Assembly: GCA_038252255.1 (NCBI GenBank)
Contig: JBBSAM010000005.1
Location: 94,040 to 158,039, forward strand
Reading direction: 5' to 3'
DNA from: Acidimicrobiia bacterium
GTDB lineage: Bacteria; Actinomycetota; Acidimicrobiia; IMCC26256; JAENVU01
Length of the DNA: 64,000 bases
The position numbers and the translations under genes are program-made. The first letter of the stretch is position 1; every line of letters starts with the position of its first letter. The notes below the pieces were generated by a model. That model made no database searches, was not told where the DNA came from, and saw nothing but the letters and a program-made list of their open reading frames with translations. Positions 55,703 through 56,752 of this stretch are shown piece after piece.

Positions 55703-56752
55703 CTACTCGGGGAGGAGTCCGCCGCCAGGGCGGATGACTTCGGCGACCGTCGTTCGCGTCACCATCCATCGCTCGCCTGAGTGGACGACCGTCCCGACGA
55801 ACGAGAACCGGGCTCCCGTGTTGAGGACCAGCACGAAGCCGGCTGATGCGGCCGTGTCAGTCGTGAAGCGCACCCGGTCCACGACCACCTCGGAGACGCG
55901 GACGTCGCCGAAGCGCGCCCCGAACTCCAGCATGATCGGGACGAGGTGCTCGCCGTCCTCCAGGAGCTCGATGGCCTCATCGTCGAGTGCGGGACCAAAG
56001 ACGACGGTCAGCGCGTGGACGATCTCTTCGACGGCACGTGGATCGTCCGCCGGCGGGCTCCCGAACACTCGCGGCGGCAACACCAGGAGGCCGGTGTCGT
56101 CGGGCGCGGCTTCGAGGGCGACGTGCGCCGCGATGATGCACACCTCGCACATGAGTGCTGCGTTCGCGGCGACGTAGTGGCGGACTTCCCAGAGGTCTCG
56201 ACCGCAGAACGAGCAGGACGGCGCCAGCCCGCCACCAACGACACTGCCGATCGGTCGGTGCACTTCGAACGGAGCTTCCACGCCGGTCGCGGCACCAGCT
56301 GCGGGCTCGACTCCCGGATTGCCCGACAGCAGCTGGATCACGCGTTTCCGCACCACCGCCAGATCGGCGCCGAGGTTCGCGAGCGCCTGCGCGCCCACGC
56401 CCTCTCCCTCTCGGATGAGGCCCAGCAAGATGTGCTCGGTGCCGATGTAGTTGTGGCCGAGCTCCAGCGCCTCTCGCAGCGAGAGCTCAAGAACCTTCTT
56501 GGCCCGCGGTGTGAAGGGGATGTGACCCGACGGCGCTTGACCGCCATGACCGATGATCTCGTGGACCTGTGTGCGCGCGTCGTCGAGCGAGATCTCGAGC
56601 GATTCGAGCGCCTCGGCTGCGACGCCCTCACCTTCGTGGATCAGACCAAGCAGGATGTGCTCGGTGCCGATGTAGTTGTGGTTGAGCAGGCGTGCTTCTT
56701 CCTGCGCCAGAACCACAACGCGTCGGGCCCGGTCGGAGAAGCGCTCGAACAC
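55703..56752 (-). CDS. ClpC1-type N-terminal domain (2 Clp_N repeats) + ClpX-type C4 zinc ribbon + unknown C-terminal domain; no AAA+ module
   Basis: Residues 1-143 ([46 protein letters not shown]...VIQLLSG) closely track the canonical actinobacterial ClpC1 N-domain. CSFCG-x18-CEVC (C180, C183, C202, C205) matches the ClpX zinc-binding domain pattern. The C-terminal 130 aa or so are unassigned. Confidence 0.8.
   Translation of the reverse strand: [349 protein letters not shown]

What the first reader, a model, noticed from the sequence alone, without database searches (positions are those of the whole stretch)
55703..56752. ClpC1 N-domain fused to a ClpX-type zinc ribbon and an unknown domain, with no AAA+ motor
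The first 143 residues or so follow the canonical actinobacterial ClpC1 N-terminus almost residue for residue, as I recall it (MFERF.[39 protein letters not shown] ... [20 protein letters not shown] ... VIQLLSG). The sequence then diverges into a linker and a C4 zinc ribbon, [26 protein letters not shown], which matches the ClpX ZBD pattern (CSFCGK...EVRKLIAG....ICDEC). A C-terminal domain of about 130 aa follows. The two substrate- and adaptor-docking modules of the two different Clp unfoldases are thus combined in one motor-less protein encoded next to clpP. The ClpC1 N-domain is the docking site for phospho-arginine and adaptor signals and for cyclic-peptide antibiotics (cyclomarin, ecumicin, rufomycin, lassomycin). 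Stand-alone N-domain homologues in mycobacteria (ClpC2) have been reported to act as decoys. This protein could be a decoy, an adaptor or anti-adaptor bridging ClpX and ClpC pathways, or a regulator of the adjacent ClpP/ClpR-like pair.
Basis: partly seen in the sequence, partly recalled or inferred. Interest (0 to 1): 0.65.

Follow-up and report, generated by a model that had tools for sequence, protein, structure and literature searches.

The report
Motor-less ClpC1 N-domain / zinc-ribbon / NTF2 protein
This gene encodes a conserved protein from uncultured soil Actinomycetota (mostly Acidimicrobiia) that joins a near-exact copy of the substrate-docking head of the ClpC1 unfoldase to a ClpX-type zinc ribbon and an MTB12/NTF2-like domain, with no ATPase motor, so it most likely binds ClpC1's ligands without unfolding anything.

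Summary
The ORF is on the minus strand (55703-56752, 349 aa). Residues 1-143 are 84% identical to M. tuberculosis ClpC1 N-domain (PDB E=9e-73). Residues 178-215 are a ClpX-type Cys4 zinc ribbon: just under the Pfam cutoff for this sequence alone, but clear at family level (profile vs ClpX ZBD structures E=1e-8; 0.9 A rmsd). The 'unknown' C-terminal domain is NTF2-like and related to antigen MTB12 (PF26580; Foldseek top hit 8z9b).

It is not a clpC1 remnant. There is no AAA+ fragment nearby. About 90 full-length homologues share the architecture, and all three domains are under purifying selection while the linker drifts.

The clpP adjacency is coincidental. The genes converge across a tRNA, and none of 19 other loci has a clp gene nearby or any conserved neighbour. 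The gene appears to be leaderless with its own promoter.

Both phospho-arginine motifs and the cyclomarin/ecumicin contact residues are invariant, making this a more faithful ClpC1 mimic than mycobacterial ClpC2 or ClpC3. The best reading, which is inferred, is a trans-acting receptor or decoy for ClpC1 N-domain ligands mounted on a zinc-ribbon/NTF2 scaffold. It is a new variant of a known kind, and its function is untested.

The parts
55703..56752 (-). Complete gene: 349 codons plus stop, GTG start
   Evidence: ORF list. 100% match to a catalogued protein, P0001. About 90 full-length homologues. dN/dS below 1 in all folded domains.
56759..56764 (-). -10-like hexamer TAGGAT, 6 nt upstream of the GTG: probable promoter of a leaderless mRNA
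   Evidence: Sequence. A TANNNT-type hexamer sits 6-7 nt before the start codon in about 15 of 17 family loci. The function is inferred, not shown.
56324..56752 (-). Residues 1-143: ClpC1-type N-terminal domain (two Clp_N repeats) with both GTEH phospho-arginine-type motifs and the cyclic-peptide contact residues
   Evidence: Pfam Clp_N E=3e-33. Mtb ClpC1 8a8u E=9e-73. 84% identity. F2, F80, E89, L92, K85, T30/E31/H32 and T105/E106/H107 are conserved in 46-47 of 47 members. dN/dS 0.08-0.15.
56222..56323 (-). Residues 144-177: disordered flexible linker
   Evidence: pLDDT about 32. Mean pairwise identity 14%. dN/dS 0.42-1.23. Length varies in alignment A1.
56108..56221 (-). Residues 178-215: ClpX-type Cys4 zinc ribbon (C180, C183, C202, C205; C-x2-C-x18-C-x2-C) plus its helix
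   Evidence: All four Cys are invariant in 47 of 47 sequences. PF06689 at 24.4 bits here, and in 26 of 29 members. Family profile vs ClpX ZBD structures E=1.4e-8. 0.9 A rmsd to 2ds6. dN/dS 0.09-0.27.
55706..56089 (-). Residues 222-349: MTB12-like NTF2-fold domain, opening with the conserved LPPRVFG strand; invariant R228, G231, E265, W329
   Evidence: Precomputed PF26580 Mtb12_C hits on family members. AF2 pLDDT 94.9 and pTM 0.85 together with the zinc ribbon. Foldseek top hit 8z9b MTB12, then other NTF2-like proteins. Invariant columns. dN/dS 0.20-0.53.

Best explanation
This is a functional, independently transcribed chromosomal gene for a cytoplasmic three-module protein.

Module 1 is a near-exact replica of the ClpC1 N-terminal receptor domain. 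It keeps both phospho-arginine pockets and the hydrophobic groove that binds cyclomarin, rufomycin and ecumicin. Module 2 is a flexible tether of about 35 residues that evolves freely. Module 3 is a rigid unit made of a ClpX-type Cys4 zinc ribbon packed onto an MTB12-like NTF2 domain.

With no ATPase and no ClpP-docking loop, the protein cannot unfold or degrade anything. The most likely mechanism, which is inferred, is that it binds in trans the same ligands as the ClpC1 N-domain: phospho-arginine-marked proteins, N-domain-directed adaptors or degrons, and N-domain-targeting natural products. It would thereby buffer, sequester or compete with ClpC1, as the mycobacterial 'caretaker' proteins ClpC2 and ClpC3 do. 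The zinc-ribbon/NTF2 unit would supply self-association (ClpX zinc-binding domains are dimers), a second conserved ligand or partner site, or both.

Shown here: domain identities, conservation of the ligand residues, absence of a motor, purifying selection, and lack of any operon link.

Inferred: actual ligand binding, oligomeric state, and the competitive effect on ClpC1.
For: Architecture and domain identities.

Ligand-site conservation: all N-domain ligand-contact residues named in the literature (F2, F80, E89, the ecumicin Leu, two pArg sites; PMC10030653, PMC13345244, PMC9604228) are invariant or nearly so in 47 family members.

Constraint on the N-domain: it is conserved within the family about as strongly as among the ClpC-type (non-family) N-domains in the same hit list (mean identity 0.78 vs 0.80), with dN/dS 0.08-0.15. 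Family N-domains cluster together (71 of 76) and share an M22L signature. This argues for one old fusion kept under selection rather than a recent pseudogene.

No motor: no AAA+ anywhere nearby.

Precedent: motor-less N-domain paralogues ClpC2 and ClpC3 bind pArg, cyclomarin and ecumicin, and compete with ClpC1 (PMC10030653, PMC13345244, PMC12678426).

Tether: the linker is disordered and near-neutral, as expected for a receptor on a leash.

Independent transcription: conserved -10-like hexamer 6-7 nt before the GTG.
Against: No binding or activity data exist for any member.

The zinc-ribbon/NTF2 unit also occurs on its own. It therefore has an autonomous function that a pure decoy model does not explain.

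No arginine kinase is known in Actinomycetota (PMC9604228), and nothing is known about phospho-arginine in Acidimicrobiia.

Unlike clpC2, no autoregulatory operator or inducible logic was seen. Gene context gives no support for any pathway.

The presence of clpC1 and clpX in the same genomes was not verified.
Confidence: 0.45

Rival explanations
1. Bridge or adaptor between the two Clp pathways. The ClpX-type zinc ribbon pairs with the zinc-binding domain of ClpX, or occupies ClpX-adaptor sites. The tethered ClpC1-type N-domain would then hand phospho-arginine-marked or ClpC1-type substrates to ClpXP, or conversely block ZBD-dependent ClpX substrates (anti-adaptor).
For: The zinc ribbon is specifically ClpX-type, with the same C-x2-C-x18-C-x2-C spacing. 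Only ClpX ZBDs are hit in the PDB, and the fit is 0.9 A rmsd. ClpX ZBDs are dimerisation and adaptor-docking modules (established knowledge, not tested here). The long flexible tether is what a delivery adaptor would need. The stand-alone zinc-ribbon/NTF2 proteins could be ClpX-directed on their own.
Against: Identity to ClpX ZBDs is only about 30%, far from the mimicry seen for the N-domain. The ribbon is predicted to be packed rigidly against the NTF2 domain (pTM 0.85), which may occupy the surface ClpX uses to dimerise. No member lies near clpX or clpP apart from the window's coincidental clpP. There are no interaction data.
Confidence: 0.2
2. Ligand- or redox-gated sensor. The conserved pocket of the NTF2 domain (R228, E265, R295, W329) or the Cys4 zinc site senses a small molecule or oxidant and changes what the tethered N-domain can bind, giving a regulatory output analogous to pArg-responsive ClpC2 but without DNA binding.
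For: Invariant polar and aromatic residues cluster in the NTF2 domain. NTF2 folds commonly form ligand pockets, and the Foldseek neighbours include SgcJ, limonene epoxide hydrolase and AtzH. Cys4 zinc sites can act as redox switches (general knowledge). The module is autonomous.
Against: No catalytic or ligand motif was identified. MTB12 itself has no known ligand. No coordinates were available to confirm that the invariant residues line a pocket. No output domain (DNA-binding or enzymatic) is present.
Confidence: 0.15
3. Regulator or assembly factor of the neighbouring ClpP / inactive ClpP-like pair, by analogy with plant ClpT1/ClpT2. These are stand-alone Clp_N proteins that dock on the ClpPR core.
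For: Physical proximity in the window: an active clpP lies 163 bp away, and a catalytically dead ClpP paralogue with an XRE regulator lies just beyond. Plant double-Clp_N proteins are weak PDB hits (4y0b and 4y0c, E=1e-6 to 1e-8).
Against: The genes converge and are separated by tRNA-Met. The family gene has its own promoter. None of the other 19 loci has any ClpP-family gene within 6-8 kb. The N-domain is ClpC1-type (E=9e-73), not ClpT-type. No ClpP-docking IGF/LGF-type loop is present (sequence inspection).
Confidence: 0.04
4. Decayed remnant of clpC1, or an assembly or annotation artefact with no function.
For: The N-domain is almost identical to ClpC1 and the motor is missing.
Against: There is no AAA+ fragment in any frame beside the gene or in the window. 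The same 340-360 aa architecture occurs in about 90 homologues from many samples and MAGs. The four Cys and the C-terminal motifs are invariant. dN/dS is 0.08-0.5 in the folded domains against about 1 in the linker. The AF2 models are confident.
Confidence: 0.01

Closest known systems
Mycobacterial ClpC2 (Rv2667; PDB 8ad9, 9p2p), a motor-less ClpC1 N-domain paralogue
   Same: It has no AAA+ motor and contains a Clp_N-type receptor domain that binds phospho-arginine and cyclomarin/rufomycin. It acts in trans as a sponge and competitor of ClpC1. It is restricted to Actinomycetota (PMC10030653, PMC13345244).
   Different: In ClpC2 the Clp_N-like domain is C-terminal, only about 40% identical to ClpC1, keeps one of the two pArg sites, and has lost the ecumicin-critical Leu. 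Its N-terminal part is a DNA-binding dimerisation domain that autorepresses clpC2. In the window protein the domain is N-terminal and 84% identical to ClpC1, with both pArg motifs and L92 kept. The PDB scores are ClpC1 E=9e-73 against ClpC2 E=2e-24. The partner domains are a zinc ribbon and an NTF2 fold, and no DNA-binding domain or operator was found.
Mycobacterial ClpC3 (small Clp_N-like 'caretaker')
   Same: A motor-less N-domain-like protein that binds cyclomarin and ecumicin derivatives and dampens their effect (PMC12678426, summarising Hoi et al.).
   Different: ClpC3 is reported not to preserve the Clp repeat domain or the pArg receptor (PMC12678426). The window protein preserves both pArg motifs and carries two extra domains.
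ClpC1 (full-length unfoldase) N-terminal domain
   Same: 84% identity over residues 1-145, the same length, the same ligand residues, and the true N-terminus fMet-Phe2.
   Different: There are no D1/D2 AAA+ modules, no M-domain and no LGF loops. After residue 143 the sequence diverges into an unrelated linker. A family-specific M22L substitution is present.
ClpX N-terminal zinc-binding domain (PF06689; PDB 1ovx, 2ds5-2ds8)
   Same: The same Cys4 spacing and fold: 0.9 A rmsd, TM 0.80, family-profile E=1e-8.
   Different: About 30% identity. It is followed by an NTF2 domain instead of an AAA+ ring, and is predicted to be packed onto that domain. It has a family-specific RDLWEV motif with a near-invariant Trp.
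MTB12 / CFP-2 (Rv2376c) C-terminal domain, PF26580; PDB 8z9b
   Same: Best structural match of the C-terminal domain (Foldseek prob 1.00, TM 0.60 normalised to the target). Precomputed Pfam hits are present on family members.
   Different: MTB12 and the tandem-repeat relatives found here (P0231, P0256, P0257) are secreted or membrane-anchored. The window protein has no signal peptide and carries a Cys4 zinc site, so it is cytoplasmic. The function of MTB12 is itself unknown.
Plant chloroplast ClpT1/ClpT2 (double Clp-N motif proteins; PDB 4y0b, 4y0c)
   Same: Stand-alone Clp_N proteins without a motor that belong to a Clp system.
   Different: They are only distant matches (E=1e-6 to 1e-8). They act on the ClpPR core, and no conserved linkage to ClpP exists here.

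Membership tests
Clp_N / ClpC1-type N-terminal domain (PF02861) | Two Clp_N repeats scoring above the Pfam gathering threshold | tested here: met
   114.2 bits against a cutoff of 20.7, two stretches.
Clp_N / ClpC1-type N-terminal domain (PF02861) | ClpC1-type rather than ClpB, ClpA or ClpC2-type | tested here: met
   Best PDB hits are ClpC1 N-domains at E=1e-72. ClpC2 scores 2e-24, ClpB 4e-7 and ClpA 0.8.
Clp_N / ClpC1-type N-terminal domain (PF02861) | Both phospho-arginine-type GTEH motifs and the cyclomarin/ecumicin contact residues are present | tested here: met
   T30/E31/H32, T105/E106/H107, F2, F80, E89 and L92 are conserved in 46-47 of 47 members. Actual binding cannot be tested here.
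ClpC1 / class I Clp-Hsp100 unfoldase | D1 and D2 AAA+ modules with Walker A/B motifs, an M-domain, and an LGF ClpP-docking loop | tested here: not met
   No AAA+ Pfam or NCBIfam domain beyond the N-domain. No Walker A in the ORF or its flanks. The AAA+ parts of real ClpC fragments hit nothing.
ClpX zinc-binding domain (PF06689 zf-C4_ClpX) | Score at or above the Pfam gathering threshold (27 bits) | tested here: inconclusive
   The window sequence scores 24.4-25.6 bits, E about 1e-5, just below the cutoff. 26 of 29 family members match at E<=0.01, best 9e-12.
ClpX zinc-binding domain (PF06689 zf-C4_ClpX) | Cys4 site with C-x2-C-x18-C-x2-C spacing and the ZBD fold | tested here: met
   The four Cys are invariant. 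The family profile hits seven ClpX ZBD sequences at E=1.4e-8 to 2e-7 and nothing else significant. 0.9 A rmsd to 2ds6.
ClpX zinc-binding domain (PF06689 zf-C4_ClpX) | Zinc binding, dimerisation and adaptor (SspB-tail-type) docking | not testable with these tools
   Requires metal analysis, SEC-MALS and binding assays, or multimer modelling.
ClpX unfoldase | A single AAA+ ring with an IGF/LGF loop following the ZBD | tested here: not met
   The ZBD is followed by an NTF2-like domain. NCBIfam ClpX models match only residues 179-214.
ClpC2 (mycobacterial autorepressor/sponge) | N-terminal DNA-binding dimerisation domain followed by a C-terminal Clp_N-like domain; pseudopalindromic operator in its own promoter | tested here: not met
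   The domain order is reversed and no DNA-binding domain is detected. No conserved palindrome was seen in 17 upstream regions, only a -10-like hexamer.
MTB12_C / NTF2-like (PF26580) | alpha+beta cone fold (three helices plus a curved antiparallel sheet) with a match to the family model or structure | tested here: met
   Secondary structure H-H-H-E-E-E-E-H. Foldseek top hit 8z9b MTB12, followed by NTF2-like proteins. Precomputed PF26580 hits on P0001 and many members, unmarked (E<=1e-5) for P0108. The local Pfam copy returned no PF26580 hit, and a sequence-profile search of the PDB did not reach 8z9b.
Plant ClpT-type ClpP-core assembly factors | Functional or genomic association with the ClpP/ClpR core | tested here: not met
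   No ClpP-family gene near the family gene in 19 other loci.
Anti-phage defence or phage-encoded protein | Match to PADLOC or PHROG families, or presence on phage, plasmid or viral contigs | tested here: not met
   No PADLOC or PHROG hits. No match in phages, plasmids or IMG/VR.

The most novel reading that the evidence does not exclude
The protein is a receptor-only hybrid that physically couples the two actinobacterial Clp pathways. Its ClpX-type ribbon docks on ClpX (or on ClpX adaptors) while its ClpC1-type head captures phospho-arginine-marked proteins. ClpC1-type degrons would thus be rerouted to, or withheld from, ClpXP, possibly gated by a ligand in the NTF2 pocket or by oxidation of the Cys4 site. 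That would be the first natural adaptor built from the recognition domains of two different unfoldases. It would also be evidence for a phospho-arginine reader network in a clade with no known arginine kinase.
Probability: 0.12. Interest if true: 0.8.

Novelty: new variant of a known kind. Interest (0 to 1): 0.5.

Why it matters
Motor-less copies of the ClpC1 N-domain (ClpC2, ClpC3) have recently been shown to blunt ClpC1-targeting antibiotics and BacPROTACs, and to sense phospho-arginine.

This family shows that the same idea arose in a different architecture in uncultured Actinomycetota, mostly Acidimicrobiia. It carries a much more faithful replica of the ClpC1 head: both phospho-arginine sites and all drug-contact residues are kept. 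That replica is joined to a ClpX-type zinc ribbon and an MTB12-like domain.

If it binds the same ligands, three things follow. The repertoire of natural 'sponges' against N-domain-directed natural products made by soil actinomycetes becomes wider. A clean, soluble two-site phospho-arginine reader becomes available for biochemistry. And the ClpX zinc-binding domain and the uncharacterised MTB12 domain would each gain a first functional context outside their usual settings. It could also help test whether phospho-arginine signalling exists across Actinomycetota.

Tried and rejected
(1) Truncated clpC1 or pseudogene. Rejected: no AAA+ remnant, wide conservation, and purifying selection.

(2) Operon or functional link with the adjacent clpP / dead ClpP / XRE cluster. 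Rejected: convergent orientation across a tRNA, the gene's own promoter, and no clp gene in 19 other loci.

(3) Any conserved gene neighbourhood. None found: all-vs-all clustering of 989 flanking ORFs gave no family in more than 4 of 20 loci.

(4) Defence-system or phage origin. No PADLOC or PHROG hits, and nothing on phages, plasmids or IMG/VR.

(5) ClgR-type or other conserved operator upstream. Only a -10-like hexamer is shared, and the sigma-70/terminator scan found nothing.

(6) Sequence-profile link of the C-terminal domain to a solved structure. Not reached; only fold comparison and precomputed Pfam gave MTB12.

(7) Genome scan with the broad 29-sequence alignment failed for lack of a conserved stretch. 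It was repeated with 6 close sequences.

(8) Single versus multiple origin of the stand-alone zinc-ribbon/NTF2 forms. The NJ and nearest-neighbour analysis was inconclusive: the forms are scattered and the sample is unbalanced.

(9) My first cut of the ClpC fragments for the AAA+ test still contained Clp_N repeat 2. The many hits are therefore to the N-domain only; no hit extends into the AAA+ part.

(10) Literature searches for this architecture found nothing.
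Full report
**Observation**

The window carries a 349-codon ORF at exactly 55703-56752, on the minus strand, starting with GTG. 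The plus-strand reading of the same interval is full of stops.

Pfam finds two Clp_N repeats (E=3e-33). It also finds zf-C4_ClpX at residues 179-211 with 24.4 bits (E=2.7e-5), just under the 27-bit gathering cutoff. It finds no AAA+ domain, and NCBIfam agrees.

Against the PDB, residues 1-157 match M. tuberculosis ClpC1 at E=9e-73, with 84% identity over residues 1-145. Mycobacterial ClpC2 scores only E=2e-24. E. coli ClpX zinc-binding domain (ZBD) structures are the best matches for residues 173-208, at E about 0.01.

**It is a family, not a remnant**

A search of 5.8 billion proteins returned many full-length homologues. They are 340-360 aa long, 50-84% identical, and have the same architecture: PF02861, PF26580 and PF06689. 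In an alignment of 47 of them, the four cysteines (C180, C183, C202, C205), R228 and G231 of an LPPRVFG motif, E265 and W329 are invariant.

There is no second Clp_N, no Walker-A-bearing ORF beside the gene, and no Clp unfoldase anywhere in the 64 kb. The AAA+ portions of genuine ClpC fragments match nothing in the window or in any related locus. The hits listed in that call are all to the N-domain, because my cut point still included Clp_N repeat 2.

Nei-Gojobori dN/dS against six homologues gives:
- N-domain: 0.08-0.15
- Zinc ribbon: 0.09-0.27
- C-terminal domain: 0.20-0.53
- Linker: 0.42-1.23

Mean pairwise identities follow the same pattern: 77%, 53%, 40% and 14% respectively. The protein therefore consists of three constrained modules joined by a freely evolving tether.

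**The zinc ribbon**

The single-sequence Pfam score is marginal, but the family-level evidence is clear:
- 26 of 29 modules hit PF06689, best E=9e-12.
- A profile of the module finds seven distinct ClpX ZBD sequences at the top of the PDB (E=1.4e-8 to 2e-7) and nothing else significant.
- The Cys spacing (C-x2-C-x18-C-x2-C) is that of ClpX.
- The AF2 model superposes on E. coli ClpX ZBD 2ds6 at 0.9 A rmsd, TM 0.80 and 30% identity.

**The 'unknown' C-terminal domain**

The precomputed annotation names PF26580 as Mtb12_C.

An AF2 model of residues 177-349 is very confident (pLDDT 94.9, pTM 0.85). It shows three helices, a four-stranded antiparallel sheet and a C-terminal helix. The high pTM implies that the zinc ribbon and this domain form one rigid unit.

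Foldseek's best PDB hit is the crystal structure of MTB12 (8z9b; prob 1.00, TM 0.60 on the target). It is followed by NTF2-like proteins: 3k7c, the PBP5 N-terminal domain, 3ub1, SgcJ and VirB8.

In the full-length model the N-domain is independent of this unit (pTM 0.50), and the linker at residues 148-175 is disordered.

**The module exists on its own**

An exhaustive phmmer search of 1.84 billion representative proteins with residues 177-349 found only 187 clusters. About half are Clp_N fusions. Others are genuine proteins of about 170-190 aa that start with Met a few residues before the CxxC, for example P0129, P0130 and P0133. A stand-alone copy was also seen in genome locus L012.

The NTF2 domain without the ribbon also occurs in tandem in membrane-anchored proteins (P0231, P0256, P0257). 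One variant has Clp_N, a ZBD and two NTF2 domains (P0148).

In a crude tree the stand-alone forms are scattered among the fused ones. That would fit repeated loss of the N-domain, but the result is not robust.

Family N-domains, by contrast, cluster together. For 71 of 76 the nearest neighbour is another family member, and they share an M22L signature. This favours one old fusion over repeated capture or gene conversion. Comparison with clpC1 of the same genome could not be done.

**Distribution and context**

A scan of one genome per species (185,579 species) found 14 loci, all in MAGs. Ten are labelled Acidimicrobiia, Acidimicrobiales or Acidimicrobiaceae. Three are labelled only 'uncultured Actinomycetes bacterium'. 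One is labelled Burkholderiales, which may be a mis-binned contig. The scan was limited by its search pattern, so this is a lower bound.

The module is absent from phage, plasmid and IMG/VR collections and matches no PADLOC or PHROG family.

Gene neighbourhoods differ in every locus examined. tblastn with the window's clpP, ClpP-like and FGGY-kinase genes finds none of them near the family gene elsewhere. The XRE query gives only a weak hit (43% identity) to an HTH gene in L006 (= L007). Clustering of 989 flanking ORFs finds no neighbour family in more than 4 of 20 loci.

In the window the gene converges on clpP across tRNA-Met.

Upstream, about 15 of 17 family loci have a TANNNT-type hexamer 6-7 nt before the GTG. 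Examples are TAGGAT in the window at 56759-56764, and TAGGCT, TACGCT and GATACT elsewhere. This is the arrangement expected for a leaderless actinobacterial mRNA, which is my inference. It supports GTG as the true start, so Phe2 is the real second residue as in ClpC1. It also supports independent transcription.

**What the N-domain can still do**

The literature gives these ClpC1 N-domain contacts:
- F2, F80 and E89 for cyclomarin (PMC10030653)
- A critical Leu for ecumicin, and two phospho-arginine sites, of which ClpC2 keeps only one (PMC13345244)
- Strong conservation of the pArg residues across actinobacterial ClpC1 (PMC9604228)

ClpC3 is reported to have lost the pArg receptor (PMC12678426).

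In the 47-member alignment, F2 (46/47), F80, E89, L92, K85, T30/E31/H32 and E106/H107 (all 47/47) and T105 (46/47) are conserved. The assignment of the two GTEH motifs to the two pArg pockets rests on my own knowledge of the B. subtilis ClpC work. The papers read here give the sites only in figures.

Within the family the N-domain is conserved about as strongly as among the non-family (ClpC-type) N-domains in the same hit list (0.78 vs 0.80). [quoted passage not shown] The family domain is thus under ClpC1-like constraint over its whole surface. That is what one expects if it must recognise the same set of partners.

**Mechanism**

Shown here:
- The protein has no ATPase and no ClpP-docking loop.
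- It carries an intact ClpC1-type receptor on a flexible tether.
- It carries a rigid ClpX-type zinc-ribbon/NTF2 unit that can also live alone.

Inferred as most likely, at about 0.45: it binds ClpC1 N-domain ligands in trans, namely pArg-marked proteins, N-domain-directed degrons or adaptors, and N-domain-targeting cyclic peptides. In doing so it buffers or competes with ClpC1, like the ClpC2/ClpC3 caretakers. The ZBD/NTF2 unit would provide self-association, a second binding site, or both.

Rival readings:
- A bridge or anti-adaptor acting on ClpX through the ribbon (about 0.2). The ClpX-specific fold and the tether favour it. The 30% identity, the predicted packing on the NTF2 domain and the absence of any linkage count against it.
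- A ligand- or redox-gated sensor (about 0.15).
- A ClpT-like regulator of the neighbouring ClpP pair (about 0.04), undermined by the lack of conserved linkage.
- A remnant or artefact (about 0.01), refuted.

**Comparison and novelty**

The protein works most like ClpC2 and ClpC3, but it fails the ClpC2 membership test. The domain order is reversed, there is no DNA-binding domain, and no operator was found. It is not a ClpC1 or ClpX unfoldase because it has no motor.

I found no paper describing a Clp_N / ClpX-ZBD / NTF2 fusion. Public annotation calls these proteins 'hypothetical' or 'Clp protease N-terminal domain-containing protein'.

I rate it a new variant of a known kind, the motor-less ClpC1 N-domain paralogues. 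Interest is moderate at 0.5. The architecture is neat and well supported, and it is relevant to phospho-arginine signalling and to resistance against ClpC1-directed natural products. However, the function is entirely inferred, and the organisms are uncultured.

Noticed in passing
window 53958-54823 (-) and 54893-55540 (+), flanked by tRNA-Asn 53881-53956 and tRNA-Met 55585-55658: A small cluster sits between two tRNA genes. An XRE-type HTH gene (93 aa) overlaps by 4 nt the start of a ClpP paralogue (195 aa) that has lost all three catalytic residues (Ser to Glu/Asn, His to Gly, Asp to Gly). Transcribed divergently from them is an intact clpP (215 aa; Ser/His/Asp kept). That clpP's best PDB matches are E. 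coli-type ClpP (E=6e-70), and no chain named ClpP1 appears among its 60 best PDB hits. It is not in the usual tig-clpP1P2-clpX arrangement, so it looks like an accessory ClpP/ClpR-like pair with its own regulator.
   Followed up: partly
window 54824-54892: The divergent intergenic region between the XRE gene and clpP contains a direct repeat of TCGAATATG. The second copy sits inside the inverted repeat ATCTC-GAATAT-GAGAT. This is a candidate operator for the XRE regulator.
   Followed up: no
window 56759-56764 (-) and the equivalent positions in L001-L021: A TANNNT-type -10 hexamer lies 6-7 nt before the GTG start in about 15 of 17 family loci. The extended GACGTAGGCT context is shared by the closest relatives. 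This suggests conserved leaderless transcription.
   Followed up: partly
window 53240-53890 (+): A 216-aa ORF has only a weak N-terminal HTH (transposase- or sigma-like, E about 0.002-0.06) and no family assignment. Its last 10 bases overlap tRNA-Asn.
   Followed up: no
proteins P0003, P0019, P0028: Other motor-less architectures turned up among the hits: proteins made of two or three tandem ClpC1-type N-domains (four to six Clp_N repeats) with no AAA+ module. This suggests that multimerised N-domain 'sponges' exist in environmental Actinomycetota. They could be fragments, which was not checked.
   Followed up: no
proteins P0231, P0256, P0257 and P0148: The MTB12-like NTF2 domain also occurs without the zinc ribbon, as tandem repeats in proteins with an N-terminal membrane anchor. 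It also occurs duplicated after Clp_N and the ZBD (P0148, 477 aa). The same domain is therefore used on both sides of the membrane.
   Followed up: no
Foldseek hit 2jq5 and NCBIfam NF002045: A SEC-C-motif (zinc-binding) NTF2-like protein (RPA3114) is among the structural neighbours. A 'zinc motif plus NTF2' pairing may be a recurrent design. Homology versus convergence was not examined.
   Followed up: no
window 56833-58947 (-): The listed 704-aa ORF upstream of the family gene is an FGGY carbohydrate kinase. Its Pfam domains start at residue 235, so the real start is probably the internal Met near 58248, and the long N-terminal extension is an ORF-calling artefact of the GC-rich sequence.
   Followed up: no
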